Assembly: GCA_947646095.1 (NCBI GenBank)
Contig: CANSFI010000002.1
Location: forward strand, 5,132 to 69,131
Source of the DNA: an uncultured Mycoplasmatota bacterium
GTDB lineage: Bacteria > Bacillota_I > Bacilli_A > RF39 > UBA660
DNA: 64,000 nt
Direction: 5' to 3'
In this document: positions 1,692 to 41,882 of the stretch, piece by piece
Position numbering within the stretch: position 1 is the first letter of the stretch
Layout of the letters: each line of letters begins with the position of its first letter
The notes under the pieces: generated by a model
Databases searched by the model: none
What the model was told of the DNA's origin: nothing
Seen by the model: only the letters and a program-made list of their open reading frames with translations
Translations under genes and position numbers: made by a program

Positions 1692-1963
1692 TTTTTCCTC
1701 CTTAAAAAAACAGTAATCAAAATCCCTATTGGGACGAATTACTGTTATATCCGCGGTACCACCCATATTATTATATTAAAAATATAATCTCTTTACGACA
1801 ATTAGTCTAATAATATGATAACGGATTACTTCCGATTTAGCCTACTATTATTTCGACTAAATGACTCCTAAGTGTTTTTCATGATAATCTTGATTGTTAG
1901 CTTCCACCATACCTAACTCGCTTAAATTAGTTTTTATCATTACTTTTCTTAATCATTGCCTAT
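1692..1963 (-). promoter_or_regulatory. T-box riboswitch leader of gatCAB (probable Asn specifier)
   Basis: On the minus strand there is an F-box CCGTTA, a T-box motif GGGTGGTACCGCGG (plus 1751-1764), and a terminator hairpin ACAGTAAT...ATTACTGT followed by TTTTTTT just upstream of the gatC RBS. AAC triplets are present in the stem I region (GCTAACAA). Confidence 0.8.
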
Positions 1964-1970
1964 GTATATA

Positions 1971-2036: not shown

Positions 2037-2112
2037 TGGCGCCTGATGTAGGACTCGAACCTACGACCCAACGGTTAACAGCCGTTTGCTCTACCGACTG
2101 AGCTAATCAGGC
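2037..2112 (-). tRNA. tRNA-Asn (anticodon GTT)
   Basis: Reverse complement is GCCTGATTAGCTCAGTCGGTAGAGCAAACGGCTGTTAACCGTTGGGTCGTAGGTTCGAGTCCTACATCAGGCGCCA. It is a 76-nt cloverleaf with anticodon loop CTGTTAA and an encoded CCA. Confidence 0.85.
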
Positions 2113-2113
2113 A

Positions 2114-2189
2114 TGGCGCTCAATGTAGGACTCGAACCTACGACCCAACGGTTAACAGCCGTTTGCTCTACCGACTGAGCTAATTGAGC
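2114..2189 (-). tRNA. tRNA-Asn (anticodon GTT), second tandem copy
   Basis: Near-identical to the first copy except for acceptor-stem bases (GCTCAAT.../...ATTGAGC). Encoded CCA present. Confidence 0.85.
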
Positions 2190-5443: not shown

Positions 5444-6199
5444 TTAATCTATATCTTTATTTCTTATAAATTCTCTAAGCATTCTAGTAAGCGCTCTTTT
5501 TTCAATGCGAGATACATAACTTCTAGAAATACCTAAGTCAGCAGCTATTTCTTTTTGTGTTTTTTCTTTTTCATCATTTAATCCATATCTTTTTATAATT
5601 ATTTCTTTTTCTCTTTCACTTAAAATATTAAAGTATTTTTTTAATGCTTTTACATGATTCTGTTTGTAGATATCTAAAGCAAAATCAGGTTTAGGTGTTT
5701 TTAAAATATCTAAAAATGTTATTTCGTTACCATCTTTATCAAAACCTACTGATTCATTTATACTAATATTTTTATTATTTTTTTTATCACTTCGATAATA
5801 CATAAGTATTTCATTTTCAATACATCTAGCACAATAAGTAGTAATACGTGTTCCATGTTTATATGAATAACTATCAACCCCTTTAATTAATCCTATTGTA
5901 CCAATACTTATTAAATCATCAACATCTTCTTTTCTATTATCATATTTTTTTACAATGTGGGCCACTAATCTAAGATTATGTTCAATAAGTTTATTTCTAG
6001 CATCCTTATCACCTAATTTAGCTTTACTAACATATTCATCTTCCTCTTGTTTAGTTAATGGATCTGGAAATACATTATTAGAATAAGCTGCTGAAAAAAG
6101 GTAAAAGTCTTTAAAAATTAAATTAAACAATTTTTTTAACAAAAAAATCACACTCCTAATTAAGAATATGATTTTTAATTCATTATTTATTTTGTCCAT
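5444..6199 (-). CDS. sigK: RNA polymerase sporulation sigma factor sigma-K (pro-sigma-K, uninterrupted)
   Basis: NKLIEHNLRLVAHIVKKY...DLISIGTIGLIKGVDSY and ...ISRSYVSRIEKRAL match SigK. N-terminal pro-sequence ends ...NNVFPDPLTKQEE. Confidence 0.85.
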   Translation of the reverse strand: MDKINNELKIIFLIRSVIFLLKKLFNLIFKDFYLFSAAYSNNVFPDPLTKQEEDEYVSKAKLGDKDARNKLIEHNLRLVAHIVKKYDNRKEDVDDLISIGTIGLIKGVDSYSYKHGTRITTYCARCIENEILMYYRSDKKNNKNISINESVGFDKDGNEITFLDILKTPKPDFALDIYKQNHVKALKKYFNILSEREKEIIIKRYGLNDEKEKTQKEIAADLGISRSYVSRIEKRALTRMLREFIRNKDID

Positions 6200-6205
6200 T
6201 AATTT

Positions 6206-6469
6206 TTATTTTATATTTAATATTTTTTCTAGTTCTTCTTTCTTTTTTCCTCTTAAAGGTTTACATTTCAAATAATTATTTTTATCTTTATTTATAGCAT
6301 CTTTCATTCCTTTACAACTACCAAATCCACATACTCCGCAATTTAATCCTGGTAAATGTTTTAGTATTTCATCTTCATTATCTATAGATACTAATATTAT
6401 TCCTAAGATTAAAGAAGTTATTGTTATAATTATTATTCCTATCATTTTATGTTTCCTTTCTTTATACAA
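6206..6469 (-). CDS. short RnfB-like protein: TM anchor plus putative Fe-S cluster domain only (no ferredoxin domains)
   Basis: LPGLNCGVCGFGSCKGMKDAINKDKNNYLKCKP matches the RnfB N-terminal Fe-S domain. It is located at the 3' end of the rnf gene string. Confidence 0.5.
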   Translation of the reverse strand: MYKERKHKMIGIIIITITSLILGIILVSIDNEDEILKHLPGLNCGVCGFGSCKGMKDAINKDKNNYLKCKPLRGKKKEELEKILNIK

Positions 6470-8348
6470 GAACTATACGGAAAGATTTGGTGTTGTTACC
6501 ATTAAAATTTTGAAAAGTAAATATGCCATTGCGATTGTTTTTATCAGCTACTCCATCTCCACCTCGACTAAACCAAGGTGTGTTATTATTAACCATTCCA
6601 GCATAATCATCATACCATGAGCCAAGTACTCCACTATCAGCATAAAATGGTCCCATCTCACCTGTTGCATCACCTAATATTCTCTTACTATATTGAGTAT
6701 AAACTGTAGATATATATATATCTACATACTTATTTTCTGGAAAAGTTGAATCTGTAAATCCACTATTACCATATTTTGTGGTAGCCCCAGTTGTATATCC
6801 CATAATGGCTTCTTCAGCTCCACCACTCATATCAAATATTCCACTTATATTTCCTGTTGTACTTTGGTTATAAATTCCATTTGTTTTACTTCCATAAACA
6901 TTTTTACATGTTCCACTTTTAGTTTCTCCAGATGAATTTCCTCCACATCCTGTCATATACCCTTGATAATTATTTATATAAACTTCTGAATTTTTTCCAT
7001 ATTTACTATGAGATAAATAGGCTACTGCCCCCCATTCTGTATTTTTCATCATATGAATATCACTATTACTTGATAAACCAAATATACTATCAGTACTATT
7101 CATACTTTTTACCATTTTAAAAGCGTTACTTACATTTATTCCTCTCCATGAATAAACGTTTGGTTTTACTATTAATTTAGTACTATTTGGATTTGCTACT
7201 ACGGCTTCTGATGTTTTAGTAGCATCTTTATAACCTGATTCAAATTTTCCTACCCATATTCCATTTAGTTCATCATTTCCAAAAGTGAATGCTGGGTGTG
7301 TTAAATATTCTCCATTATTTGTTCCATTTGATTTAGGGGTATTTTTATTTTCAAATACTATATCGATACTATGAACTTTAGTTGTATCTTTACTTGTATT
7401 TTTATCTAATACTTCTACATACCATAATTTATATTTATATCTTGGTATCCATGTTAAATAAACTAAAATATCATCTTCATTTATTTCTAATGCTGCATCT
7501 GTATTTTCATACTTGCTTCTACTTTCATCTGTTACTAGTACTGCATTTGCCCATACTTTATTATTATAATCATACCACTTACTTGATAAATCAGCTTTTT
7601 TTACAGTACCATCATTTTCTATTGTTACTGGTATCATTCCCGTTTTTAATACTGGATCTACTCCATTTAAACTTTCATCTTTATAGATATTTGTTTCTAC
7701 TGCTACTGTAATTGTTTTTTTTATGTTAGTTTTATCTACTGTTACTGTAATAGTTGTTATTCCCTCACTAATCCCTGTTATATTTCCTTCACTATCTACT
7801 TTAGCTATAAAGTTATCACTGGATTCCCAGTTTAATTTTTTATTGGTTGCATCACTAGGTAAGATATTTACATCTATTTTTTTACTTCCTTTTACTTTTA
7901 AAGTTATCTCTGTTTCACTTAATATAATATCCTCTACCGATATTGGTATAATACAATTTTTAGTATTTTCTATTAATGTTATATCATTATCATTAATTCC
8001 TTTAGTTACACAATATTTTCCATTTGTTATAGCTAATTCTATTTTTCCTTCTTTTGTAATAATCATATTACCACTTTTAGGTCTACTTCCTTTTATATCT
8101 AGTCCTTTAGCATCTGGAAATGTAAATGTTATTTCTGTCATTTCAACTGAGTCTAATAATTTATTAGCATAATAAACCTCCCCAGCTTTTATTATTCCAT
8201 ATGCTGAATCCTTAAATGCTGATTTATTTGCTCTTTCTATTATGTTCATTATTATTGGTATTGTAATTAAAGCTATTATGACTAATATTATTATGACTGC
8301 TAGAAGTTCTATAAGCGTAAATCCTTTTTTATTTTTCATTTCAATCAT
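6462..8348 (-). CDS. type IV pilin-like protein (prepilin N-terminus) fused to Big_2/Ig-like domains (pilin family member P1)
   Basis: N-terminus MIEMKNKKGFTLIELLAVIIIL... has the canonical G|FTLIE prepilin cleavage/methylation motif. The middle region has a Big_2-like repeat (ITLKVKGSKKIDVNILPSDATNKKLNWESSD...ITVTV). Confidence 0.75.
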   Translation of the reverse strand: MIEMKNKKGFTLIELLAVIIILVIIALITIPIIMNIIERANKSAFKDSAYGIIKAGEVYYANKLLDSVEMTEITFTFPDAKGLDIKGSRPKSGNMIITKEGKIELAITNGKYCVTKGINDNDITLIENTKNCIIPISVEDIILSETEITLKVKGSKKIDVNILPSDATNKKLNWESSDNFIAKVDSEGNITGISEGITTITVTVDKTNIKKTITVAVETNIYKDESLNGVDPVLKTGMIPVTIENDGTVKKADLSSKWYDYNNKVWANAVLVTDESRSKYENTDAALEINEDDILVYLTWIPRYKYKLWYVEVLDKNTSKDTTKVHSIDIVFENKNTPKSNGTNNGEYLTHPAFTFGNDELNGIWVGKFESGYKDATKTSEAVVANPNSTKLIVKPNVYSWRGINVSNAFKMVKSMNSTDSIFGLSSNSDIHMMKNTEWGAVAYLSHSKYGKNSEVYINNYQGYMTGCGGNSSGETKSGTCKNVYGSKTNGIYNQSTTGNISGIFDMSGGAEEAIMGYTTGATTKYGNSGFTDSTFPENKYVDIYISTVYTQYSKRILGDATGEMGPFYADSGVLGSWYDDYAGMVNNNTPWFSRGGDGVADKNNRNGIFTFQNFNGNNTKSFRIVLV

Positions 8349-8405
8349 CCCATTCTATTTTTATTATACCTATATTTTAATCTATATTAAATTGACAACA
8401 TTAAT

Positions 8406-8522
8406 TTAGTTTTGTCTATCTTTTTTACATCCATTACAATTAATACAACTTTTACACTTATTTTTACTATATAAAATACAAGTTAAAATAAATAAAACTA
8501 GAAGTATAATAAAAGCAATCAT
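8406..8522 (-). CDS. tiny membrane peptide with CxxCxxCxxC cluster, translationally coupled to rnfA
   Basis: Hand translation gives MIAFIILLVLFILTCILYSKNKCKSCINCNGCKKDRQN (38 aa). Its ATG overlaps the rnfA TGA stop (ATGA). It is below the ORF-track size cutoff. Confidence 0.35.
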   Translation of the reverse strand: MIAFIILLVLFILTCILYSKNKCKSCINCNGCKKDRQN

Positions 8523-9088
8523 AAAGGCATGTACCTTTTAAATAAAAGTGACATAACAAAAGCAGTTATTAAAGCAATAGGAACTCCTTTAAAGTATTTT
8601 GGAATATTAGATATTTCTAACCTTTCTCTAATACTTGCGAATATATATAAAACTAATGTAAAACCTAAAGAAGAAGATATACTATATATAAGAATTTCAA
8701 TAAAATTAAAACTATTATTTATATTCAATAAATTTATACCTAATACTGCACAATTTGTAGTTATAAGAGGTAAATATAAACCTAAATTTTTATGAATTTT
8801 AGGTAAATATTTTTTTAATACAATTTCTATTAATTGAACCATAAAAGCAATAATCAAAATAAACATAATAGTTTTTAAATATGTAGTATTTGTAGGAACT
8901 AAGATAAAATAATAAATTAAATAAATTAAAATACTAGATAAAATAACTACTATACTAACACTTACTCCCATATAAAAGGCATTCTTTTCTTTATTAGAGC
9001 TACCAAAGAAAGGACATAATCCTAAAAATTTACTCAAAATAATATTTTCTGTAAGTAAACCTGTAATAAATAAATTAATTAAATTCAT
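8519..9088 (-). CDS. rnfA: Rnf electron transport complex subunit A
   Basis: Polytopic membrane protein with GLCPFFG motif, RnfA/NqrE family. Confidence 0.85.
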   Translation of the reverse strand: MNLINLFITGLLTENIILSKFLGLCPFFGSSNKEKNAFYMGVSVSIVVILSSILIYLIYYFILVPTNTTYLKTIMFILIIAFMVQLIEIVLKKYLPKIHKNLGLYLPLITTNCAVLGINLLNINNSFNFIEILIYSISSSLGFTLVLYIFASIRERLEISNIPKYFKGVPIALITAFVMSLLFKRYMPL

Positions 9089-9714
9089 ACTCTTCTCCTA
9101 TCTTTTAAATAATTAAAAAGTGGTATTAATAATCCTAAAGTTAAGAAAGCTCCTGCTGGTTCTACTAAAATAGATATTGGTAAAATATTAGTAGTTGGTA
9201 TTATTCTATAAATAGCTCTATATCTAGTAATAGAACTAATAGAATCCATTAGTGTAATTATACCAGTACCAAGAACTTCTCTAAACAAAGCTATTAAAGT
9301 TATAGCTAAAGTAAATCCTAGTCCTATTCCTAATACATCTTTCAAACTATAACTCATTTTTTCTTTTGAATAAACTGTTAATATTCTGCCTAAAATAGTA
9401 CAGTTAACAACAATTAAAGGTAAATATATTCCAAATACTTTATATAGGTTAGATATATAATTTTTTAATATTATTTCTATAGCTGTAACAATAGTTCCAA
9501 CTATTAATATATAAACAGGTATTTTAACACTTTCTGGTACTATTTTCTTAATAATAGTTACAACAAATGATGAAAGAATTAAAACTATTAAAACACATAT
9601 TCCCATTAAATAAGCGTTTTCTACTTTAGTTGTAACTGCTAAAGCAGGACATAATCCTAAAAGTAAAACAAAAGTAGGATTTTCTTTTATTATTCCATTT
9701 ATTATTGTTTTCAT
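9085..9714 (-). CDS. rnfE: Rnf complex subunit E
   Basis: LLLGLCPALAVTT motif, RnfE/NqrD family. It overlaps rnfA by 4 nt. Confidence 0.85.
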   Translation of the reverse strand: MKTIINGIIKENPTFVLLLGLCPALAVTTKVENAYLMGICVLIVLILSSFVVTIIKKIVPESVKIPVYILIVGTIVTAIEIILKNYISNLYKVFGIYLPLIVVNCTILGRILTVYSKEKMSYSLKDVLGIGLGFTLAITLIALFREVLGTGIITLMDSISSITRYRAIYRIIPTTNILPISILVEPAGAFLTLGLLIPLFNYLKDRRRV

Positions 9715-9798
9715 ATTTCACCTACACTTTTCATAATAAAATAAAGTATACTAGAACAGATTAAAGCTGTTAAAGTTAAAACTATTACACCTTTTATT

Positions 9799-11196
9799 TT
9801 ATCTTTCATAATTATCACCATAATCTTTTAAAGTATTTATAAACATCTTCTTTAAAGATGTAGAAGTTATTGTAACACCACTAATAGTATCAACATTATC
9901 AAGATTATTTTGTTCAGATATTAATTTATTTATATAATTTGTATCTATTATCTTTTCATAAAAACTATCACTTTGTTCTAATATTTCTACAGATTTTATT
10001 TTAGAATTATTAATAGTTATTTTTGCTTTTATGGTACTAGAATATCCTTTTTCAGTTACAATATAAATAATATTAGAACCTATTTTTTCTTTACTTTCAA
10101 TACTATAATTAGGATCTTTTTCATCAATTTTATATTTAGAAGTAATTATAAAAGGTAAAACTACAATTAAACTTGCTAAAACTATAAATGGTAGAATTAT
10201 TTTTTTTTGTCTATTTGAGCATAAATTATCAATAACAGGCACTAGCATATTCATAGTTAAAATACTTGTAAGAACACCTTCTGGGTATGGAGTTAAATAT
10301 CTAAATATAACTGTAAGTATTCCAAGTGAAATACCATATATTATTTGACCAGCTATAGTAGTTGGACTAGTAACAGGATCAGTTGCCATAAAAACTGCTC
10401 CAAAAAATAACCCACCACTTAATATTTGAAATAAAGGATACCAAATTCCTAAATCATTAAATATTCCAACTAAATAAGTTAATATAAATACTGTACTTAT
10501 ATAAAAAACTGGTATTTTCCATTTAATTGTTTTAGTAATTGTTAAATAAATAAAAGCTATTAAACAAAGTAAAGCACTTGTTTCTCCGATAGCCCCTGGT
10601 ATAGTTCCAATAAAGAAATTTAAAAGGTTTCCATATGGTTTAACTAATATATCATATGTACCTATACTATCTATAGATGCATTAGAAAGTGGTGTAGAAT
10701 GACTTATAGTATCTATTTCATAACTATTCAAATATCCTCCATGACTACTAATTACGCTAGCATATACTGATATAATGAAAAGTCTTCCTATCAAAGCAGG
10801 ATTAAAAATATTATTACCAAATCCACCAAATAACATTTTACCTAATATACTAGCAACTAAAGAACCTAGTATAACTAAAGATACTGGTGTATTAATTGGT
10901 AAGATAAGTCCTAAAAACAAACCTGGAATAAAACTATAAGAATCAAATAAGTATTTTTTTAAATCCTTTTCTTTTAAGAATAATTTTACATATAATAATT
11001 CAAAAAGTGTTGTTGATAAGGTTGATACTAATATTATTATAATTGGTCTAAATAGAATAATTATATTTCTATTACTAATATAGGGTATAATGCCATTTTT
11101 ATAAAAACTAAATAGAATAATTGGAGTTAAAGCAATAATTAAATGTAACATTATTTTGCTAGTTTTATTTTTACTTTTTATATATGGTCCTTTCAT
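9799..11196 (-). CDS. rnfDG: fused Rnf subunits D and G (RnfD membrane domain plus C-terminal FMN-binding RnfG domain)
   Basis: The N-terminal ~320 aa are polytopic RnfD-like. The C-terminal ~140 aa have a TM anchor and the FMN-binding motif DTISGVTITSTS. Confidence 0.75.
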   Translation of the reverse strand: MKGPYIKSKNKTSKIMLHLIIALTPIILFSFYKNGIIPYISNRNIIILFRPIIIILVSTLSTTLFELLYVKLFLKEKDLKKYLFDSYSFIPGLFLGLILPINTPVSLVILGSLVASILGKMLFGGFGNNIFNPALIGRLFIISVYASVISSHGGYLNSYEIDTISHSTPLSNASIDSIGTYDILVKPYGNLLNFFIGTIPGAIGETSALLCLIAFIYLTITKTIKWKIPVFYISTVFILTYLVGIFNDLGIWYPLFQILSGGLFFGAVFMATDPVTSPTTIAGQIIYGISLGILTVIFRYLTPYPEGVLTSILTMNMLVPVIDNLCSNRQKKIILPFIVLASLIVVLPFIITSKYKIDEKDPNYSIESKEKIGSNIIYIVTEKGYSSTIKAKITINNSKIKSVEILEQSDSFYEKIIDTNYINKLISEQNNLDNVDTISGVTITSTSLKKMFINTLKDYGDNYER

Positions 11197-12452
11197 TATT
11201 TACCTACTTTCTCTTTTGCTTTTCTTACAGATTCTCTTACATTTATTTTAGCTGGACAAATATAAGAACACAAACCACAATTAATACATTTGTTGGCATT
11301 TAATTGTTTTAGTTTTTCTATATTATTTATATTATCTTTAATTAAAACAGGACATATTTTGGCTGGACATACACTTACACATTTACCACATCTTAAACAA
11401 TTTTTAACTTCTTCTTTTTTTATATTTTTTAAAATTAAGACACAATTTAATTCAGGAGTAACGATTAAATCTTCTACATTTTCTCCCATCATAGGACCAC
11501 CTGCTATAAGAATTTTATTATCACAACCTATATAATTAATTAATTCTTTTACTGGTGTACCTATTTTAACTAAAATATTTTTAGAATTTTTTAATCCATT
11601 TCCAGAAAATGTAACTATTCTTTCAGTTAAAGGTTTATTTAATTTTAAAGCTTGGTATATTGCATATATAGTTGAAATATTATTTACAATTATATACTTT
11701 TCAATAGGTAATTTATCATAAGTAATATTAGTTAATTCTTTAATTAAATTTCTCTCCCAACCCATAGGATATAAACTTGGAACTAATACTACTTTAATCT
11801 TTAAATATGTACCAATATATTTATTGATTATATCTAGTAAAGATTTAGAACTAACAGCTATTATAGATTCATTTATATTATTTATTTCCATTATAGCATC
11901 TATTACTTCTAATATTTCTTGGCATTTATCTTTAATAATAAAATAATCAGCTGTAATATATGGTTCACATTCAACCGCATTTACAATTAATGTATTAATA
12001 TTTTCGTTATTATATTTAATATAAGTTGGAAATCCTGATCCACCTAAACCAACTATTCCATTATTTTTTAATATTTCAATAAATTCTTGTTTAGTTATTT
12101 CATTTATTTTATCTTGTTTTTTCAAATTGTTTACATTTGTTTCTTTAAAATCATTTTCAATAACTATACATTTTACTTTATTACCATTAAATATTGTGTG
12201 GTCTTCAAAATCAATAACTTTTCCACTTACAGTAGATAATATTAATTTTTTAACGTTATCTTTTACCTTACCTATAATACTACCTTTACAAACATAATCA
12301 CCTTTATTTACTAAAACTGTAGCATTATAAGTAGGAATATAAACTCTTTCTGGTTTATTATAAATATCTAATGGTGTTTTAGTTGATACTGATTTATATC
12401 TAGGTATTTTTAAACCTTTCATCTTTTCACCTACCCTAATATAATTATACAT
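11196..12452 (-). CDS. rnfC: Rnf complex subunit C
   Basis: Two 4Fe-4S motifs (CLRCGKCVSVCP, CINCGLCSYICP). GGSGFP NADH-binding-like motif. Likely true start is MKGLKIP at 12422. Confidence 0.85.
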   Translation of the reverse strand: MYNYIRVGEKMKGLKIPRYKSVSTKTPLDIYNKPERVYIPTYNATVLVNKGDYVCKGSIIGKVKDNVKKLILSTVSGKVIDFEDHTIFNGNKVKCIVIENDFKETNVNNLKKQDKINEITKQEFIEILKNNGIVGLGGSGFPTYIKYNNENINTLIVNAVECEPYITADYFIIKDKCQEILEVIDAIMEINNINESIIAVSSKSLLDIINKYIGTYLKIKVVLVPSLYPMGWERNLIKELTNITYDKLPIEKYIIVNNISTIYAIYQALKLNKPLTERIVTFSGNGLKNSKNILVKIGTPVKELINYIGCDNKILIAGGPMMGENVEDLIVTPELNCVLILKNIKKEEVKNCLRCGKCVSVCPAKICPVLIKDNINNIEKLKQLNANKCINCGLCSYICPAKINVRESVRKAKEKVGK

Positions 12453-12495
12453 TCTTTTTTTTATTTTGGAAATATTTAATTTAAAATAAAAAAGA

Positions 12496-12592: not shown

Positions 12593-15466
12593 ATGAAGAA
12601 GATTAAAACAATTAAAAGGATTTCAAAATATTTATTATTTATAATAGTGATGTTTATAAGTATAAATGGAGTTAAAGCTGATTATCAAAGCGACCATAAT
12701 AGTACAATTTCCACATCTGGTGGAGTAAACTGTAATAGCTATTGTTGGAATTTCCCAGATAAGCAATCATATGTTTCTGGAATTAGAGTAAGTGTTGTTA
12801 ATTCTGATGGAGATATGGTAAGTAAACGAACAATGGATTATTTAAATAGTGGTAACCATGTTTATAGGTTTAATAACAATAGAGGATACTCAAGATGTTA
12901 TGACAATGCTCGTAACAAAATAACTTATTTAAAATATAATGCACCAGCTAAATGGGGAAATCATAATGGTGAAGAAATAGCAAAATATCTAGATATGCCA
13001 GATATCTTTCGTAATAGAAATTCGGCACAAATTATAAAAGATGCTATAAATAATGGGTTAGATAAAGTATTCTTTGATGACATTGGATATACACTACCTA
13101 ACAGTGTAGAAGAAAGAAATGAACATTATATAATTATTGAACCTGTAACTGCTATTATTTCTGGTGATAGACAATATTATGGAACATATTATGAACTAGC
13201 TTCATCTCTACCTACTGGTAGTGGGATTTCTACATCTTCTGTATTGTTAGAATCATTACCAATTTCTATGTATATATCTGGAAATAAAAGAATAAAAGGA
13301 AGTGCTAGATTTGAAAATGGTACTTATTTTAAAGGATTATTAAGAGAAGCTAGATGGCCAGAGATGCGAAATCCTTATTACACAAGTCAATTAGGTAAAC
13401 AATATTGTGATCAACATTTTGGTTGGGGGGTAGCTATTTATTGGTTAGGTGTTGGTAGTGATGATGATCCTCCAGATTTAGATATAACCCCTCCTATTCC
13501 ACCTAAATGTGATTTTAATAATTCTAGTCACTTTAGAAGTACAACAAGTGGCCCAAATAATGAAGATTGCTGTATATATGTTTTAGATAATTTAAAAGAT
13601 TATAATATAACTAAAGAAGATTTATTTAATCGACATAGAAGGTGTCGTCAAAACATCATTAACACTTGTAAATTTGGATATGATACAAGTCAACCTTCAT
13701 GTAATACAAGTGCTTACGGTTATATAAAAGATATTGACGATTGGGTATGTATTAAATCTAGTCCATTATCAAATAACTCAACTTTTAAAAATTATTTTCT
13801 AAAATACGGGAATTTTGATAGTGCTTGTTCTGTATACTGTCGTGATGAAATCAAATATTTATATCCAGGTAGTGGAATGATTGCTTTAGCTGGTAACTAC
13901 TTTACAATTGCTAATAAAAGTAATTCATATAGTTATTATATAGATGATGTAACAAAAACAACTAAAGTTAAAGCCGCAACTCTTGGACCTATAACTATTA
14001 CTGTCAAAAGAGAATGCACTATTGATACAGATCCAGATACTGTTACTAGTTCTGATTTAAATCAATGTCAAGTTAAATTAAATGATCAATTAGATCAATT
14101 AAAAGCTCCTGCTATTGAATTTGCTTATGAATCTGATTACTATAATAATCCTACTGAAAATTTAAGAGTTTCTAAAACTACTACAACTAATTCAAATGAT
14201 AATAATATAAAATCTAGAACTATAAAATATGAATATTCATTACCTACTACTACTTATTACTCTGTATCTAAAGGTAATGGAGCATCTACCAAATATAAAC
14301 CTTCTTCAAATAATTCAAATTATATTACTATTGGATATCATTTACCTATTCATTTTACTCAGGCTACTGGTAGAACAGAATATCAAATAGGTATTAAAAA
14401 TTTCAATAATCAAAACTTTAATAATGTATTTATAAATGGTAATAAAATGCCAACTACTATTAAATCAAGTATTGAAAGTTATATTCAAAACTTAAGAAAA
14501 AGTGGGAAGGCTAATGCTAGTAATATTAATGGAAGATGGTATTTAGATAAAACTTTTGTAAAATTATTAGAAAAAGCTAATTATGATAAAGTAAATTTTA
14601 TGCAGATGAGTTGTGCTAATACTAGTAGTTATACTTGTAATTATGATGATAATGGTATATATTGTTTAGATAAAAATAGTAATTCTAATAGTGAACAAAC
14701 TTATAAAAATCTAGATAGTTGTATTAGAACAGAAGTTCAAAAATTAAAAACTAACAATGTAAGTTATAAATCTGATTTAACTTATACTTGTAACTTTACT
14801 GTAAGAAACACTATAGGTTCTACACCTGATCCAGATCCATCAGGATATAAATGTAAATATATAAATGGAAAATATTATGGAATTAATGGAAATATTGTAT
14901 CAAAAGATACATATACTAGTGAGTGTGGTTCTTCACCTATAAATCCTGATAATCCATCTTGTATTCCAGGTGATCCAGATTGTCCAGGTAATAATGATGA
15001 AGATGATAATTGTGTTGGTCCTAGTTGTAATCCTGGTGGTATAGATCCAGAAGATGGTCCAGGAGGAATCAATGTTATATTTAGACCAATATCATTAGAT
15101 AATCCATTTCCAAGTATCGATGGTGATGGAAGAAAAACGGGAAGTAATTGGTGTTATTGGTATGACTGTGCTAATACAAACGATGTAGTTAAAAAAGCTA
15201 TTACTAATAATAGAAATGTTACAACTGAAAAAGTTTATAAAGATTTAGGCCCACTTTATAAAATAACTTTAACTCCTGCTACTATTAAAGAAATAAGAGC
15301 TTATAATAAAAAAACTACCTATGATGACTTTAATTTAAAATGCAATAATGGTACTAAATGTCTTAGTGACTTTATTCGTAAAAACTTTATAAGTAAATTT
15401 ACTGGCTGTGGTATTAAAGGTCATGAAGGTACTACTAAATGTCAAGACTTTGATAGATGGGGATAA
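12593..15466 (+). CDS. large secreted Cys-rich protein of unknown family (paralog A, 957 aa)
   Basis: Sec-type signal peptide (MKKIKTIKRISKYLLFIIVMFISINGVKA|D). Many Cys residues. C-terminal D/P/G-rich segment (NPFPSIDGDGRKTG). No recognisable catalytic motifs. Confidence 0.6.
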   Translation: MKKIKTIKRISKYLLFIIVMFISINGVKADYQSDHNSTISTSGGVNCNSYCWNFPDKQSYVSGIRVSVVNSDGDMVSKRTMDYLNSGNHVYRFNNNRGYSRCYDNARNKITYLKYNAPAKWGNHNGEEIAKYLDMPDIFRNRNSAQIIKDAINNGLDKVFFDDIGYTLPNSVEERNEHYIIIEPVTAIISGDRQYYGTYYELASSLPTGSGISTSSVLLESLPISMYISGNKRIKGSARFENGTYFKGLLREARWPEMRNPYYTSQLGKQYCDQHFGWGVAIYWLGVGSDDDPPDLDITPPIPPKCDFNNSSHFRSTTSGPNNEDCCIYVLDNLKDYNITKEDLFNRHRRCRQNIINTCKFGYDTSQPSCNTSAYGYIKDIDDWVCIKSSPLSNNSTFKNYFLKYGNFDSACSVYCRDEIKYLYPGSGMIALAGNYFTIANKSNSYSYYIDDVTKTTKVKAATLGPITITVKRECTIDTDPDTVTSSDLNQCQVKLNDQLDQLKAPAIEFAYESDYYNNPTENLRVSKTTTTNSNDNNIKSRTIKYEYSLPTTTYYSVSKGNGASTKYKPSSNNSNYITIGYHLPIHFTQATGRTEYQIGIKNFNNQNFNNVFINGNKMPTTIKSSIESYIQNLRKSGKANASNINGRWYLDKTFVKLLEKANYDKVNFMQMSCANTSSYTCNYDDNGIYCLDKNSNSNSEQTYKNLDSCIRTEVQKLKTNNVSYKSDLTYTCNFTVRNTIGSTPDPDPSGYKCKYINGKYYGINGNIVSKDTYTSECGSSPINPDNPSCIPGDPDCPGNNDEDDNCVGPSCNPGGIDPEDGPGGINVIFRPISLDNPFPSIDGDGRKTGSNWCYWYDCANTNDVVKKAITNNRNVTTEKVYKDLGPLYKITLTPATIKEIRAYNKKTTYDDFNLKCNNGTKCLSDFIRKNFISKFTGCGIKGHEGTTKCQDFDRWG

Positions 15467-15471
15467 TATAA

Positions 15472-15508
15472 AAGAATTTGAATCTATGAATTTTCAAATT
15501 CTTTTTTA
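15472..15508. terminator. bidirectional intrinsic terminator
   Basis: AAGAATTTGAA-tctatgaatt-TTCAAATTCTT has a perfect 11-bp stem flanked by T/A runs on both strands. Confidence 0.6.
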
Positions 15509-15516
15509 ATTAAAAT

Positions 15517-15804
15517 TTATCTATTAAATAAGTCAATATGACTACCTATTGCAAAAAGCAATAAAATTAATTCACTATCTTGTATTTTATATATTAATAA
15601 CCAATCAGGTAATATATGACACTCATTACAATCTTTAAATGTTTTATCATTTACTAATTTATGATTTCTATACTTTAAATCTAATTCTTCTCCATTTGAT
15701 AATTTTTCTATAACTTCATACAATTTATTTAAATCTTTACCTTGTCTTTTTATTTTTTTATACTGTTTTTTAAAATTACTAGTATAATCAACTTGATACT
15801 ACAT
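15517..15804 (-). pseudogene. YafQ/RelE-family toxin gene with amber stop at codon 2
   Basis: In-frame translation from ATG 15804 is M-TAG-YQVDYTSNFKKQYKKIKRQGKDLNKLYEVIEKL...CHILPDWLLIYKIQDSELILLLFAIGSHIDLF, YafQ-like throughout. Only a TTG at 15723 could restart. Confidence 0.55.
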
Positions 15805-15809
15805 AATAA

Positions 15810-16100
15810 TTATTCCTTATTTAAAGAATCTATAAGATCATTCATGTTAGTATAGCCTTTTCTTTTTCCACTTTTTAACTCTTGAAGAATTTGCTCACCT
15901 TCATCTAATGATTCTATCAATTCTTTAATTGGTCTAGGGTTAGACACTTCAAATGGTATACCATCTTTATTTATCAATTGTTTCATTGCCATATTTACAA
16001 AAGTACTCATGTTTAATCCTAAATTTTTTAATATACCATTGGCTACTTCTTTATCATGGGTATCTACTTGAACACTAATAGCACTTGTTAAATTTTCCAT
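15810..16100 (-). CDS. RelB/DinJ-family antitoxin
   Basis: ISVQVDTHDKEVANGILKNLGLNMSTFVNMAMKQLINKDGIPFE matches DinJ/RelB. It sits immediately upstream of the YafQ-like ORF. Confidence 0.7.
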   Translation of the reverse strand: MENLTSAISVQVDTHDKEVANGILKNLGLNMSTFVNMAMKQLINKDGIPFEVSNPRPIKELIESLDEGEQILQELKSGKRKGYTNMNDLIDSLNKE

Positions 16101-16321
16101 ACATATACACCTCTTTCTTATAAAAAATTATATCATAAAAATATTATATATATTTATAATATTATAATCTATAAATTTAATAATAAATGAAAATAAACAA
16201 ATATCTAAAAACAATTAATATAAAATACTTCATCAAAAACTATAATATTTCTTTATATTTATTCTATATAATTATAAATTTTACTTTCTCATACTTAAAA
16301 CAAAAATTTTTAAAATAATTA

Positions 16322-16350
16322 TTGACCAATTGGATTACAAATTATATAAT
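16322..16350 (+). promoter_or_regulatory. consensus sigma-A promoter
   Basis: TTGACC, 17 nt spacer, TATAAT, upstream of the ATG at 16374. Confidence 0.55.
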
Positions 16351-16373
16351 TATAATAGGAATTAGGTGATATT

Positions 16374-17105
16374 ATGATAAAAAATAAAAGAAAAACTATT
16401 ATAGGGATTATTTTAAGTACTATAGTTATTAGTACAATACTATTTTCTAATCAAATAGCTAAAGTTGACGCTGAAGGACAAGCAGACATAGGTGGTTCTA
16501 CTGCTGGTGGTAGCGGTTGTATAGACCCTAAAAATTGTTGGCCATTCCCAGATGGTGGTACTAATAAGTCAATTAGAGGTATTAGGGTTAGTGTTGTAGA
16601 TAACAATGGAAACATGATCAGTGCTAGATCTATGGATTATTTGAGTGAGGAAAGTCATGTTAGAATAATTAACACAGATAAACGTTATACTAAATGTACA
16701 AACCACACTCGTAATAAAGTATCTTATATAAAACAAAATACATCTTGTAATTGGGCTAATGAGTTAATAACTGTTAAACATGCTTCTTGGCTACCAGACG
16801 TATTTTTCGATAGTTCAGCTAGTAATACAATTAAAAATTATATTTTAAATAACTATAATAATATAAGAGACAATATATTCCAAGATATTGGTTATAATGC
16901 TCCTAGTAAAGAAAAAAGAAAAAATCATTATGTAATTGTTGAACCTGTAACTTATGTTACTTACCTAGGGGACAGATATTATGGAACTTATCATGAATTA
17001 AGTAATAAAATGCCTACTAGTGGAAGACCTGTTTTAAAAAAACATTTACCTTATTCTATGTATATTGTAGGAAATGAAAATATTGGTGGTGATGGTGGTT
17101 TTTAA
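16374..17105 (+). CDS. N-terminal fragment of large secreted Cys-rich protein paralog B (ends at in-frame TAA)
   Basis: Signal peptide plus a domain homologous to residues ~40-270 of paralog A (GIRVSVV.NG.M.S.R.MDYL, HY.I.EPVT). Confidence 0.55.
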   Translation: MIKNKRKTIIGIILSTIVISTILFSNQIAKVDAEGQADIGGSTAGGSGCIDPKNCWPFPDGGTNKSIRGIRVSVVDNNGNMISARSMDYLSEESHVRIINTDKRYTKCTNHTRNKVSYIKQNTSCNWANELITVKHASWLPDVFFDSSASNTIKNYILNNYNNIRDNIFQDIGYNAPSKEKRKNHYVIVEPVTYVTYLGDRYYGTYHELSNKMPTSGRPVLKKHLPYSMYIVGNENIGGDGGF

Positions 17106-17144
17106 AATAATTCTTATTTTGATGGAGCTATAAAAGTAGTTAAC

Positions 17145-19337: not shown

Positions 19338-19367
19338 AAAAATGACAAATTTAATGTCATTTTTTTA
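19338..19367. terminator. hairpin plus T-run
   Basis: AAAATGACA-aatttaa-TGTCATTTTTTT overlaps the stop of the minus-strand histidine kinase gene. It is usable on either strand. Confidence 0.4.
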
Positions 19368-20625
19368 TTATAAAACTAACACCTTTTTTTTCATTATTAA
19401 CAATAATTTCATAATCAAATAAAGATATAGTTTTTTTAACAATTGATAATCCTAAACCAAATTGTCCTTTTATGCCTTTTTTATATGGAGTAAAAATATC
19501 ATTTAAAATATTAGGGTCAATATTTGGACCATCATTATAGAAAATTATTTTCCCATTTTTTATTGTTATTTTAATAATTTTATCAGCATATCTTATAAAA
19601 TTGTTTAGAAGATTATCAATAATAGCCTCCCACATATCAGTTGTTCCTTTAAATTCTGTATCTTTATCTTCAATATGAATTTCCCATTTAATATTAGGGT
19701 TGGCTAATTTAAATTTTTGAGTAGATATTCCTATTATTTTAGAAACATCTACTTTTTCTTTTTTATAATTTTTTAAATCTTTTATATAATTTAATTTGTT
19801 CAAATATAGTAAGGAGTGTACTTTTAATTCTAATTTGTTTACTTGTTCTTTTATAACTGACATACCTGAGTTTATATCTTCTACTCCATCTTCTATAGCT
19901 TCAATATAAGATTTTATAACTGTTATAGGCGTTTTAAAATCATGTGAAATATTTTGATACATTTGGTTCTTATATTCATCTTGTTCTTTTAAAGCATTTT
20001 TCATATTATCAATAGAAACAGATAAAGATTTTAACTCATCATCAGTATTATATTTATATTTATCAATATAGTTATCATTATCTAAATTATCTATTTTTCC
20101 TTTCAAATGTTCTATTTTTTTTATTAAACTTCTTGACCATAGTAGGATTAGTCCAAGAACTAAAAGGAGTGTAAACATAAGAACTGGAAAAATAGTATAT
20201 AAGATATCCGTTTTTATTTTTTTAATATAGTTATCATTTGTAAGGGCTATTTTTGTTACATATGGGTCTACATCAGTATAATAATAGTATACATTACCTA
20301 AATAAATAAATTTACCTTGATTTTTATTAATTCTTTTTAATATTTTGTCAGGATTTAATTTGATTATTTTATTTAGATTAGTTGAAGAAATAACTATTTT
20401 ATCGGTTGTGACATAAAGATATGCGACATCAGAATTAAATTCAGCTTTTTCTACATTAGAATTAATTAAATCTAGTGGTTGTTTTAATAAAGCATATATA
20501 TTTTTTTCATATATTGGAAGTAATACTTTAGGAAGTAATACTCCTAATACACTAGTAATGATTATAAATATAATTATTACAATAACTATGAGTTGTTTAG
20601 ATAAATTTTGTTTACATTCTATCAT
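19357..20625 (-). CDS. two-component sensor histidine kinase
   Basis: Two TM segments. H-box SHDFKTPITVIKSYIEAIEDG. HATPase_c motifs (NDGPNIDP, GLGLSIVK). Confidence 0.85.
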   Translation of the reverse strand: MIECKQNLSKQLIVIVIIIFIIITSVLGVLLPKVLLPIYEKNIYALLKQPLDLINSNVEKAEFNSDVAYLYVTTDKIVISSTNLNKIIKLNPDKILKRINKNQGKFIYLGNVYYYYTDVDPYVTKIALTNDNYIKKIKTDILYTIFPVLMFTLLLVLGLILLWSRSLIKKIEHLKGKIDNLDNDNYIDKYKYNTDDELKSLSVSIDNMKNALKEQDEYKNQMYQNISHDFKTPITVIKSYIEAIEDGVEDINSGMSVIKEQVNKLELKVHSLLYLNKLNYIKDLKNYKKEKVDVSKIIGISTQKFKLANPNIKWEIHIEDKDTEFKGTTDMWEAIIDNLLNNFIRYADKIIKITIKNGKIIFYNDGPNIDPNILNDIFTPYKKGIKGQFGLGLSIVKKTISLFDYEIIVNNEKKGVSFIIKK

Positions 20626-41876: not shown

Positions 41877-41882
41877 TTTATT

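What the first reader, a model, noticed from the sequence alone, without database searches (positions are those of the whole stretch)
6206..9088. rnf operon interrupted: pilin-like gene and a tiny Cys-peptide ORF lie between rnfA and a truncated rnfB-like gene
Gene order on the minus strand is rnfC, rnfD-G fusion, rnfE, rnfA, a 38-aa ORF, pilin-like P1, then an 87-aa RnfB-like gene, then sigK. The 38-aa ORF starts with ATGA overlapping the rnfA stop, and P1 has no recognisable promoter of its own (only a weak -10). P1 is therefore probably co-transcribed with the Rnf genes. The only RnfB-like gene present is 87 aa, consisting of a TM helix plus the LPGLNCGVCGFGSC Fe-S domain. The polyferredoxin part that normally accepts electrons from ferredoxin is missing. 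Either a full-length rnfB lies elsewhere, or this Rnf complex uses a separate ferredoxin-like partner.
Basis: partly seen in the sequence, partly recalled or inferred. Interest (0 to 1): 0.6.

Follow-up and report, generated by a model that had tools for sequence, protein, structure and literature searches.

The report
Rnf operon with minimal RnfB subunit
A group of low-GC gut and sediment Bacilli has an Rnf respiratory-complex operon whose electron-input subunit RnfB is cut down to a membrane anchor plus one iron-sulfur domain, alongside two conserved micro-proteins; in this species alone a surface pilin-like gene has recently landed inside the operon.

Summary
The gene order is real. The 'interrupted and truncated' reading is only partly right.

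- **Mini-RnfB.** The short RnfB (79 aa from ATG 6445) is not a truncation product. It belongs to a conserved family, all 76-93 aa, that always ends an rnfC / rnfD-G / micro-ORF / rnfE / rnfA / Cys-micro-ORF / mini-rnfB operon in about 20 loci of uncultured Bacilli/'Mollicutes'. It keeps the TM helix and the four-Cys [4Fe-4S] domain. It lacks the ferredoxin-docking domain, which has 2-7 clusters in every characterised RnfB.
- **Cys peptide.** This ORF is native: 19 of 20 loci have it, it is translationally coupled, and it is under purifying selection. It resembles PF12669 FeoB-associated Cys-rich peptides.
- **P1.** Only P1 is an insertion (~1.97 kb). It is confined to this species and carries its own promoter-like region, shared with a paralogue, but no terminator. 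Its C-terminal domain has a C-type-lectin/FGE-like fold, which suggests an adhesin.
- **Pilin link.** Prepilin-type genes abut this operon type in at least five independent lineages. Four protein clusters are in-frame mini-RnfB::prepilin fusions.

I could not test whether a full-length RnfB lies elsewhere in the genome.

Verdict: a new variant of a known system, of moderate to high interest.

The parts
12444..12472 (-). promoter-like site upstream of rnfC (TTTCCA-17-TATAAT)
   Evidence: Consensus scan; sequence. This is a consensus match only. Such matches occur at chance frequency in this AT-rich DNA.
11196..12452 (-). rnfC (418-aa ORF; likely start ATG 12422, giving 408 aa)
   Evidence: TIGR01945 at 327.6 bits, above the cut-off; RnfC_N, Complex1_51K and two Fer4 motifs. 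L010 gene call is 408 aa.
9799..11196 (-). rnfD-rnfG fusion (465 aa)
   Evidence: PF03116 on residues 3-330 plus PF04205 FMN_bind on 384-456; TIGR01946 above the cut-off. The same fusion is present in all related loci.
9711..9821 (-). conserved single-TM micro-ORF (36 aa; likely 32 aa from ATG 9809), consensus KG(I/V)LVLTLTA(L/F)ICS, invariant Cys
   Evidence: Present between rnfD-G and rnfE in all 20 loci. pN/pS is 0.24-0.76 among four close relatives. No Pfam or PDB match.
9085..9714 (-). rnfE
   Evidence: PF02508; NF009070 at 204.5 bits, above the cut-off. The GLCP and VNC Cys motifs are visible in the translation.
8519..9088 (-). rnfA
   Evidence: PF02508; TIGR01943 at 223.3 bits, just under the 229.3 cut-off. 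The GLCP and TNC Cys motifs are visible.
8406..8522 (-). Cys-rich single-TM micro-protein (38 aa): TM helix, LYSKN, then CKSCINCNGC. Its start overlaps the rnfA stop (ATGA).
   Evidence: An orthologous peptide is present in 19 of 20 loci at the same position. In relatives its stop overlaps the mini-rnfB ATG. pN/pS is 0.22-0.48. PF12669 FeoB_associated: the orthologue of L001 scores 30.4 bits (gathering score 27), others 9-20 bits, the window copy 9.3 bits.
6449..8415 (-). inserted cassette (~1.97 kb) carrying P1, flanked by an imperfect ~9-bp duplication AAA(T)GATAG
   Evidence: Junction comparison with L018, L090 and L092, which lack the insert. Boundaries are approximate to a few bases.
8363..8390 (-). 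promoter-like region of the P1 cassette (TTAATA-16-TATAAT)
   Evidence: About 30 nt including the -10 element are shared with the upstream region of paralogue P0021 in L026.
6462..8348 (-). P1: prepilin-type surface protein (625 aa from ATG 8339) with N-methyl motif and pilin head, a Big_2 Ig-like domain, and a ~400-aa C-type-lectin/FGE-like domain
   Evidence: Pfam N_methyl and Big_2. AF2 model pLDDT 84. Foldseek top hit is the DGR variable protein TaqVP, 5vf4, E 6e-8. Some homologues carry PF03781.
6206..6445 (-). mini-rnfB (79 aa): N-terminal TM helix plus the C-x2-C-x4-C-x16-C [4Fe-4S] 'FeS' domain, with no ferredoxin-like domain
   Evidence: PF04060 at 29.6 bits, above the gathering score. 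The family of 19 clusters is all 76-93 aa, with four invariant Cys. The profile hits the N-termini of RnfB chains 8ahx_B, 7zc6_B and 9eri_B. The AF2 model superposes on the CFeSP [4Fe-4S] domain at about 2 A rmsd.

Best explanation
The locus holds a lineage-specific variant of the Rnf ferredoxin:NAD+ oxidoreductase operon. A recent, species-specific insertion of a pilin-like surface-protein gene lies on top of it.

**Shown**
- In a clade of uncultured low-GC Bacilli/'Mollicutes' the operon is rnfC, rnfD-G fusion, a ~30-aa TM micro-ORF, rnfE, rnfA, a ~35-aa Cys-rich TM micro-ORF, and a 76-93-aa mini-rnfB.
- The mini-RnfB keeps exactly two of the three modules of canonical RnfB. These are the N-terminal membrane helix and the small [4Fe-4S] domain that shuttles electrons to the intramembrane [2Fe-2S] centre of RnfA/E.
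- It has lost the C-terminal poly-[4Fe-4S] domain that docks ferredoxin.

**Inferred**
- The exposed single cluster takes electrons directly from, or gives them to, a soluble ferredoxin, flavodoxin or rubredoxin-type carrier. The rest of the path (RnfA/E, RnfG-FMN, RnfD-FMN, RnfC, NAD+) is canonical.
- The Cys-rich micro-protein is translationally coupled to rnfA and mini-rnfB and resembles FeoB-associated Cys-rich peptides. It most likely handles iron or Fe-S for the membrane-proximal centres. That could be an NqrM-like maturation role, or it could supply an extra metal site next to the mini-RnfB.

**P1**
- P1 is a duplicated paralogue cassette that inserted precisely at the peptide / mini-rnfB overlap.
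- The insertion added four residues to the peptide and gave mini-rnfB a new Shine-Dalgarno sequence.
- The cassette kept its own promoter-like region but lost its terminator. Mini-rnfB is therefore probably now transcribed from both the rnf promoter and the P1 promoter.
- P1 itself is probably a pilus-displayed or pseudopilus-displayed ligand-binding protein, not a redox protein.
For: **Mini-RnfB family**
- 19 clusters, all 76-93 aa, with four invariant Cys.
- It is always the last gene of the same operon.
- The profile matches only the N-terminal ~70 residues of solved RnfB chains.
- The model shows a TM helix plus a CFeSP-like [4Fe-4S] domain.
- The review PMC12174285 describes RnfB as TM helix + small flexible [4Fe-4S] domain + C-terminal domain with 2-7 clusters that accepts ferredoxin.

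**Rnf core**
- The RnfA/E Cys motifs and the flavinylation motifs (SHSTPL, SGVTITS) are intact.

**Cys peptide**
- 19 of 20 loci, with overlapping start and stop codons.
- pN/pS 0.22-0.48.
- PF12669 hits.
- NqrM analogy.

**P1**
- Absent from the closest relatives L018, L090 and L092, but present in every contig with the identical mini-RnfB.
- The junction shows a duplication, a promoter shared with the paralogue, and a lost terminator.
- Lectin-like fold.

**Possible partner**
- P0165 fuses a rubredoxin-like module to the same FeS domain, which hints at small redox-protein partners.
Against: - No biochemical or transcript data exist for any of these organisms.
- I could not search whole genomes, so a canonical RnfB encoded elsewhere is not excluded.
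- The window's own Cys peptide scores only 9.3 bits against PF12669. Nothing matches NqrM by sequence.
- Promoter-like matches are at chance frequency in this AT-rich DNA (62 found, 66 expected). The P1 promoter rests on conservation with one paralogue.
- Prepilin genes recur next to this operon, and in-frame mini-RnfB::prepilin fusions exist. This argues that P1's position may not be a neutral accident.
Confidence: 0.6

Rival explanations
1. Prepilin-type proteins are genuine functional partners of this Rnf variant. The mini-RnfB and a pilin-like protein would be made, and perhaps assembled, together, with the prepilin peptidase able to separate them. P1's position inside the operon would then be selected rather than accidental. 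For example, it could couple the complex to an extracytoplasmic module or to pilus biogenesis.
For: - Six of the 11 prepilin-type ORFs found in 338 kb of rnf loci lie inside the operon or within 60 nt of it on the same strand. Expected by local density is 0.7-1.6; Poisson P is about 1e-4 to 0.08, depending on the assumed slot size and on how many of the juxtapositions count as independent events.
- They belong to different pilin subfamilies, so at least five juxtapositions were independent.
- Four protein clusters are clean in-frame fusions: the complete mini-RnfB followed directly by G|FTL(I/V)E. These are P0131/L025, P0290/L039, P0291 and P0144.
- The fusion topology is self-consistent: TM helix, cytoplasmic FeS domain, prepilin cleavage site, pilin helix, external domain.
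- Some relatives have a doubled FMN_bind domain in RnfD-G. PMC8238504 interprets such an arrangement as a branch to extracytosolic acceptors.
Against: - Thirteen of 20 loci, including the three closest relatives, have no pilin gene at the operon. L029 has one 767 nt downstream.
- Pilin-like genes in these genomes are numerous, scattered singletons, tightly appended to unrelated housekeeping genes: efp/lon, lepA/valS, mraZ, a DUF87 ATPase gene.
- The P1 family is huge, with more than 6000 hits.
- P1's large domain is a lectin/FGE-like binding fold with no redox motif.
- The sample is small and phylogenetically structured.
Confidence: 0.2
2. A canonical full-length RnfB is encoded elsewhere in these genomes. 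The 79-aa protein would then be an accessory or unrelated Fe-S domain protein that merely sits at the end of the operon.
For: - The whole protein scores far below the RnfB family cut-offs (TIGR01944: 32.6 against 68.7 bits).
- PF04060 also occurs in non-Rnf proteins such as CFeSP and sensory hydrogenase-like proteins.
Against: - The mini-RnfB occupies the rnfB slot of the Firmicute rnfCDGEAB order in every locus. It keeps an RnfB-like N-terminal TM helix and is translationally coupled to the upstream genes.
- No ferredoxin-type gene other than rnfC lies in the 64-kb window.
- Its best PDB sequence matches are RnfB chains.
Confidence: 0.15
3. The operon is decaying: the insertion has disabled Rnf, and the short ORFs are remnants or chance ORFs.
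For: - The P1 insertion broke the ancestral translational coupling.
- The organisms have small, reduced, AT-rich genomes in which short ORFs arise easily.
Against: - All eight ORFs are intact. They are identical or nearly identical in contigs carrying this mini-RnfB, recovered from many independent samples.
- The micro-ORFs are conserved over lineages with only 41-56% mini-RnfB identity, with pN/pS below 0.5 in most comparisons.
- Cofactor-binding motifs are intact.
Confidence: 0.04

Closest known systems
Canonical RnfB (A. woodii 9eri_B, C. tetanomorphum 7zc6_B, A. vinelandii 8ahx_B; TIGR01944/K03616)
   Same: - N-terminal TM helix followed by the PF04060 four-Cys [4Fe-4S] domain.
- Last gene of the rnf operon.
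- The profile aligns to residues ~6-74 of the solved chains.
   Different: - The protein ends after the small domain.
- None of the 2-7 further [4Fe-4S] clusters that form the ferredoxin-accepting domain is present.
- It scores below the family cut-offs.
NqrF of Na+-NQR
   Same: Same design logic at the input side: one TM helix plus a small, flexibly tethered Fe-S domain that delivers electrons to the intramembrane [2Fe-2S] centre.
   Different: - NqrF has a [2Fe-2S] ferredoxin domain and a large FAD/NADH input domain.
- It is not homologous.
- The mini-RnfB has no input domain at all.
NqrM (DUF539), maturation factor of Na+-NQR
   Same: A small single-TM, Cys-bearing membrane protein encoded with the structural genes and co-transcribed with them. 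It is thought to be needed to insert the intramembrane [2Fe-2S] cluster.
   Different: - No sequence similarity detected: no NqrM family hit at E up to 10.
- The peptide here is about half the size.
- It sits between rnfA and rnfB, not after the operon.
[quoted passage not shown]
   Same: - Same size and architecture: TM helix plus a C-terminal Cys cluster.
- One orthologue passes the gathering score, and seven of the nine peptides scanned hit it weakly.
   Different: - The described members lie downstream of feoB or are fused to FeoB, and their function is unknown (PMC8749426).
- Here the gene is embedded in an rnf operon.
- The window copy itself is below threshold.
RNF clusters with multi-flavinylated RnfG (Meheust et al. 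2021, PMC8238504)
   Same: Some relatives (L021, L029, L035) have two FMN_bind domains on the RnfD-G fusion.
   Different: - The window's RnfD-G has one FMN_bind domain.
- That paper defined RNF by the presence of a K03616 RnfB. The passages I read do not describe a minimal RnfB.
Type IV pilins / T2SS pseudopilins, and DGR variable protein TaqVP (5vf4)
   Same: - P1 has the prepilin cleavage/methylation motif and a pilin head.
- Its C-terminal 400 aa match the C-type-lectin/FGE-like fold of TaqVP.
   Different: - It is far larger than structural pilins.
- No pilus machinery lies in the window.
- No template-repeat/variable-repeat pair was found in the window. No reverse transcriptase turned up among the ORFs scanned, but not every ORF was scanned.

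Membership tests
RnfB (Rnf complex subunit B) | N-terminal transmembrane helix | tested here: met
   Hydrophobic residues 1-22. AF2 helix 2-29. Aligns to the TM region of 8ahx_B and 9eri_B.
RnfB (Rnf complex subunit B) | Small PF04060 [4Fe-4S] domain with four Cys ligands | tested here: met
   PF04060 at 29.6 bits against a cut-off of 23. C36, C39, C44 and C61 are invariant in 19 sequences.
RnfB (Rnf complex subunit B) | C-terminal ferredoxin-like domain with two or more [4Fe-4S] clusters (the ferredoxin acceptor) | tested here: not met
   The protein ends at residue 79. It has no CxxCxxCxxxC motif. All family members are 76-93 aa. The review gives 2-7 clusters for known RnfB.
RnfB (Rnf complex subunit B) | Curated family score (TIGR01944 / NF equivalogs) | tested here: not met
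   32.6 bits against a cut-off of 68.7. All equivalog models are far below their cut-offs.
RnfB (Rnf complex subunit B) | Encoded as terminal gene of an rnfC-D-G-E-A-B cluster | tested here: met
   Same position in all 20 loci. In the window P1 separates it from the upstream rnf genes.
RnfB (Rnf complex subunit B) | Physically part of the complex and transfers electrons between ferredoxin and RnfA/E | not testable with these tools
   Needs purification, EPR and activity assays.
[quoted passage not shown] | Score at or above the Pfam gathering threshold (27 bits) | tested here: inconclusive
   The window peptide scores 9.3 bits (E 1.8). The orthologue in L001 scores 30.4 bits (E 4.8e-7). Five others score 11-20 bits.
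[quoted passage not shown] | Located downstream of, or fused to, feoB | tested here: not met
   Lies between rnfA and mini-rnfB in 19 loci. No feoB is adjacent.
NqrM (DUF539) | Sequence membership in the NqrM family | tested here: not met
   No NqrM hit for nine peptides at E up to 10. The resemblance is functional analogy only.
Type IV pilin / pseudopilin | Prepilin leader with G|F(T/S)LxE and hydrophobic alpha1-N helix | tested here: met
   PF07963 at 29.5 bits and TIGR02532 at 27.2 bits. The sequence reads KKGFTLIELLAVIIIL. The AF2 model has a long N-terminal helix, 9-62.
Type IV pilin / pseudopilin | Prepilin peptidase and assembly ATPase/platform in the genome | not testable with these tools
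   None in the 64-kb window. A related organism (L025) encodes Peptidase_A24, T2SSE and T2SSF 5-9 kb from its rnf operon.
DGR variable protein | C-type-lectin/FGE-like fold | tested here: met
   Foldseek hit to 5vf4, E 6e-8, prob 1.00.
DGR variable protein | Template repeat / variable repeat pair and reverse transcriptase nearby | tested here: not met
   No repeat involves the 3' end of P1 in the window. No RT was found among the ORFs scanned, but not every ORF was scanned.

The most novel reading that the evidence does not exclude
In this clade the input side of Rnf has been rebuilt. The ferredoxin-docking domain is gone. Two micro-proteins have joined the complex, one of them Cys-rich. The remaining mini-RnfB is functionally wired to prepilin-type proteins, in some lineages being synthesised as the ~85-residue 'leader' of a prepilin and released by the prepilin peptidase. 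Rnf assembly or electron flow would then be coupled to a pilus- or pseudopilus-anchored extracytoplasmic module. One possibility is an outward electron branch through the sometimes doubled RnfG flavin domains.
Probability: 0.12. Interest if true: 0.85.

Novelty: new variant of a known kind. Interest (0 to 1): 0.6.

Why it matters
- **Ferredoxin docking.** Rnf is the central energy-conserving enzyme of many anaerobes. All structural and mechanistic work assumes an RnfB with a multi-cluster ferredoxin-docking domain. A natural, conserved Rnf that keeps only the small shuttle [4Fe-4S] domain would show what is minimally needed to feed the membrane core. It would also raise the question of which soluble carrier docks, and how. 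It resembles the state proposed for the RnfB-loss step in NQR evolution.
- **Micro-proteins.** The two conserved micro-proteins are candidate unrecognised subunits or maturation factors. In particular they are a possible counterpart of NqrM for Rnf, for which no [2Fe-2S] insertion factor is known.
- **Fusions.** As far as I know, mini-RnfB::prepilin fusions would be the first case of a folded Fe-S domain in the leader position of a prepilin. No paper in the searched library links rnfB and prepilins in this way.
- **Annotation.** KEGG- or TIGRFAM-based pipelines will call these operons 'RnfB-less', and gene callers often skip the micro-ORFs.

Tried and rejected
1. **Truncation of rnfB by the P1 insertion.** Rejected: relatives without P1 have the same short gene.
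2. **Cys peptide as a chance ORF.** Rejected on conservation, coupling and pN/pS.
3. **Micro-ORF 9711-9821 as a detached RnfG N-terminal helix.** There was only one weak hit (RsxG, E 0.034, for the L025 orthologue). A profile search of the PDB found nothing. Left open and not claimed.
4. **P1 as a DGR target.** The lectin fold matches TaqVP. No template/variable repeat lies in the window, and no reverse transcriptase appeared among the ORFs scanned.
5. **Loci L041-L089 from the genome scan.** Their FeS-domain matches lie inside 555-750-aa hydrogenase-like or other proteins, so they are irrelevant to Rnf.
6. **Wider occurrence of the short family.** The representative search gave many 85-110-aa hits. 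Fragments of canonical RnfB at contig ends cannot be told apart from true short forms, so I did not use the counts beyond the top hits.
7. **Rfam scan.** No regulatory RNA in the operon region.
8. **Free-standing homologues of the fused small pilin.** They sit after a DUF87 ATPase gene, not at rnf. This weakens a strict pilin-Rnf link.
9. **Literature.** Searches found no description of a minimal RnfB, of Rnf micro-proteins, or of an RnfB-prepilin link. The NqrM paper itself was not held.


Full report
**1. The observation**

- rnfC, 11196-12452
- an rnfD-rnfG fusion, 9799-11196 (PF03116 + FMN_bind)
- rnfE, 9085-9714
- rnfA, 8519-9088
- a 38-aa Cys-rich ORF, 8406-8522
- a 625/628-aa prepilin-type protein P1, 6462-8348 (N_methyl + Big_2)
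- an RnfB-like ORF, 6206-6469 (PF04060 'FeS' domain only)
- sigK, 5444-6199

The peptide's ATG overlaps the rnfA stop (ATGA). Three details need correcting:
- The RnfB-like gene almost certainly starts at ATG 6445, 16 nt after the P1 stop and behind an AAAGGA Shine-Dalgarno sequence. That gives 79 aa, identical to database protein P0001.
- P1 is preceded by a canonical TATAAT (8368-8363) with TTAATA 16 nt upstream, not by 'only a weak -10'.
- A further 36-aa single-TM micro-ORF (9711-9821) lies between rnfD-G and rnfE.

No terminator-like site lies on the minus strand between 5200 and 12800. Apart from RnfC, no protein in the 64-kb window has a ferredoxin-type CxxCxxCxxxC motif.

**2. The short RnfB is a conserved family, not a truncation**

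A search of 5.8 billion proteins returned 19 clusters, every one 76-93 aa. The four Cys of the C-x2-C-x4-C-x16-C motif are invariant, and the N-terminal hydrophobic helix is conserved.

I read the genomic context for nine of these proteins. A scan of one genome per species added 12 more loci. These are MAGs labelled Bacilli, Bacillales, Mollicutes, Tenericutes or Firmicutes, from rumen, mouse gut, soda-lake and other sediments.

In every case the small gene ends an operon of the same build: rnfC, rnfD-G fusion, ~30-aa micro-ORF, rnfE, rnfA, ~100 nt, mini-rnfB.

Further support for an RnfB relationship:
- The profile of the family matches solved RnfB chains of A. vinelandii, C. tetanomorphum and A. 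woodii, but only over their first ~70 residues.
- An AlphaFold model shows a TM helix (2-29) followed by a ~50-residue helical domain. That domain superposes at about 2 A on the N-terminal [4Fe-4S] domain of the corrinoid iron-sulfur protein, the archetype of PF04060.

A 2025 review describes RnfB as three modules (PMC12174285):
- a TM helix
- a small, flexibly tethered [4Fe-4S] domain that hands electrons to the intramembrane [2Fe-2S] of RnfA/E
- a C-terminal domain with two to seven [4Fe-4S] clusters that accepts ferredoxin

The mini-RnfB is exactly the first two modules. It fails the curated RnfB cut-offs (32.6 against 68.7 bits). Pipelines that define Rnf by K03616, as in PMC8238504, would probably miss it. 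The rest of the complex looks functional. The Cys pairs of RnfA and RnfE, the flavinylation motifs of RnfD and RnfG, and the FMN/NADH and 2x[4Fe-4S] modules of RnfC are all present.

**3. The 'tiny Cys-peptide ORF' is native to the operon**

The ~100-nt 'gap' between rnfA and mini-rnfB in the relatives encodes the same kind of peptide in 19 of 20 loci. It has a short N-terminus, one TM helix, a basic LYSKN-like stretch, and a C-terminal CxxCxxC cluster, often with a fourth Cys.

Its start overlaps the rnfA stop. Its stop overlaps the mini-rnfB start (…AAATGAT…). The three genes are therefore translationally coupled. Among four close relatives pN/pS is 0.22-0.48.

[quoted passage not shown] One orthologue passes the gathering score (30.4 bits), five score 11-20 bits, and the window copy scores 9.3 bits. 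That family is known only as putative small ORFs downstream of feoB, or fused to FeoB, with a presumed iron-binding Cys motif and no tested function (PMC8749426).

The nearest functional analogy is NqrM. This small membrane Fe-S maturation protein is encoded in the nqr operon and is thought to be needed to insert the intramembrane [2Fe-2S] cluster. No sequence similarity to NqrM was detected.

The second micro-ORF (9711-9821) is present in all 20 loci. Its consensus is KG(I/V)LVLTLTA(L/F)ICS with an invariant intramembrane Cys, and its pN/pS is 0.24-0.76. It has no family or PDB match.

**4. P1 is the only foreign element, and it is recent**

The closest relatives carry rnfA, Cys peptide, mini-rnfB and sigK with no pilin gene. 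These are L090/L091 and L092 (79% mini-RnfB identity) and L018 (76%). Every contig that has the 100%-identical mini-RnfB and reaches far enough upstream has P1.

Comparison of the junctions shows the following:
- The ancestral …TGTAA(A/G)AAATGATAGGAATA… is split into …TGTAAAAAAGATAG|ACAAAAC… upstream and …CATAAAATGATAGGAATA… downstream. That is an imperfect ~9-bp duplication flanking a ~1.97-kb insert (about 8415-6449).
- The upstream copy lost the T of the TGA stop, so the peptide gained four residues (DRQN).
- The insert carries ~30 nt of upstream sequence, including the TATAAT, that is also found upstream of the 72%-identical paralogue P0021. P0021 lies next to mraZ in contigs from the same sample series.
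- That paralogue is followed by a clear hairpin terminator. P1 in the window is not.

The cassette therefore probably arrived with a promoter and without a terminator. Mini-rnfB is then expected to be transcribed by read-through from both the rnf promoter and the P1 promoter. This is inferred, as no transcript data exist.

**5. What P1 is**

The AlphaFold model (pLDDT 84) shows three regions:
- a long pilin helix with a small head (1-130)
- a low-confidence Big_2 region
- a confident ~400-residue C-terminal domain

The only significant PDB match of that C-terminal domain is TaqVP, a diversity-generating-retroelement variable protein with a C-type-lectin/FGE-like fold (E 6e-8). Some homologues carry PF03781. 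The family is very large, with more than 6000 hits.

No template/variable repeat is found in the window. No pilus machinery and no reverse transcriptase turned up among the window ORFs I scanned, though I did not scan them all.

The window holds three more pilin-type genes. All are singletons wedged between housekeeping genes:
- 38400-38816, between valS and lepA
- 46264-47787, between efp and lon
- a degenerate copy at 31155-31720

. P1 therefore looks like a ligand-binding surface protein displayed through a prepilin-type anchor, not a redox component.

**6. An unexpected recurrence: prepilin genes at this operon type**

I scanned the 20 loci (338 kb) for prepilin motifs and found 11 genes. 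Six lie inside the operon or within 60 nt of it on the same strand:
- the window (inside)
- L025 and L039 (fused to mini-rnfB)
- L021, L031 and L038 (directly upstream of rnfC)

Local density predicts 0.7-1.6 such cases. Poisson P is roughly 1e-4 to 0.08, depending on the assumed slot size and on how many of the juxtapositions count as independent events. The pilins involved belong to different subfamilies, so at least five events were independent.

Four protein clusters are clean in-frame fusions. The complete mini-RnfB is followed directly by the prepilin cleavage motif G|FTL(V/I)ELLAV and a pilin body. These are P0131 (683 aa, P1-like, L025), P0290 (221 aa, L039), P0291 (340 aa) and P0144 (230 aa).

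The topology is self-consistent: TM helix, cytoplasmic Fe-S domain, cleavage site at the inner face, pilin helix, external domain. A prepilin peptidase could release the two parts.

Several points argue against a strict functional link:
- Thirteen of the 20 loci have no pilin gene at all, and L029 has one only 767 nt downstream.
- Free-standing homologues of the fused small pilin sit behind a DUF87 ATPase gene.
- Pilin genes in these genomes seem generally prone to append themselves to other genes.

I treat a real pilin-Rnf coupling as a rival, and as the most novel reading, at about 0.1-0.2 probability.

**7. Mechanism proposed**

Shown: the operon architecture, the domain content, the conservation, and the insertion history.

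Inferred:
- This Rnf works with a minimal input subunit. Its single, exposed [4Fe-4S] cluster exchanges electrons directly with a soluble low-potential carrier and passes them to the RnfA/E [2Fe-2S].
- P0165, a database protein in which a rubredoxin-like module replaces the TM helix in front of the same FeS domain, hints at small redox proteins as partners.
- The Cys-rich micro-protein either helps load iron or Fe-S onto the membrane-proximal centres (NqrM-like), or contributes a metal site beside the mini-RnfB.
- The other micro-protein is probably a structural TM subunit.

Whether a canonical RnfB exists elsewhere in these genomes could not be tested. It is the main open point.

**8. Novelty**

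The searched literature does not describe a minimal RnfB, Rnf-associated micro-proteins, or any RnfB-prepilin connection. That literature includes the 2025 RNF/NQR review, the NQR-origin paper, the flavinylation survey and the Feo evolution paper. The locus is a new variant of a known system.

Noticed in passing
window 5444-6199; L010, L012, L013, L015, L017: sigK is intact in the window (and in L011 and L014). In other contigs of the same species it is split after ~114-136 codons by an inserted element with a serine recombinase (Resolvase/Recombinase/Zn_ribbon_recom), a Viral_Rep-like gene and HTH genes. This resembles the skin element of Bacillus/Clostridioides sigK and is polymorphic within the species.
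   Followed up: partly
window 9711-9821 (-): A conserved ~30-aa single-TM micro-ORF lies between rnfD-G and rnfE in all 20 loci, with an invariant Cys in the middle of the helix. It has no family or PDB match, and only one weak similarity to the RsxG N-terminus.
   Followed up: partly
L021/L022 3316-5058; L029 2124-3842; L035 6838-8577: In three related lineages the RnfD-G fusion carries a second FMN_bind domain (about 580 aa). This is a 'multi-flavinylated RnfG' of the kind proposed to branch electrons to extracytosolic acceptors.
   Followed up: no
protein P0165 (representative library): A 119-aa protein joins a rubredoxin-like N-terminus (CTIC…CPLC) to a mini-RnfB-type FeS domain and has no TM helix. 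It is a possible clue to the redox partner of this domain.
   Followed up: no
window 12593-19136 (+), 15810-16100 (-): Two paralogous large Cys-rich proteins without any Pfam hit (957 aa and 663 aa, 71-87% identical over the repeated DNA stretches) and a relB-like antitoxin gene lie between the two-component system (19357-21278) and rnfC. In L018 the two-component system directly precedes rnfC, so this block is a second insertion next to the operon.
   Followed up: partly
window 31155-31720 (-), 38400-38816 (-), 46264-47787 (-): Three further prepilin-type genes are scattered as singletons between housekeeping genes. One (31155-31720) is degenerate: it reads KCFALIELL and has an in-frame stop just upstream. 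P1 and the 507-aa copy share 79-81% identical 5' DNA.
   Followed up: partly
window 63734-63949 (+): A tandem repeat of period 36 (six copies) encodes Gly-X-Y collagen-like triplets ([12 protein letters not shown]). This suggests a collagen-like, possibly exosporium-type, protein in this spore former.
   Followed up: no
window 1727-1965, 27010-27192, 41669-41880 (-); 2040-2189 (-): Three T-box leaders, the latter two upstream of leuS- and valS-type genes, and two adjacent tRNA genes.
   Followed up: no
L025 10001-12052: The locus with the large mini-RnfB::P1-like fusion is the only one that lacks the Cys-rich micro-ORF. rnfA ends 4 nt before the fusion gene.
   Followed up: partly
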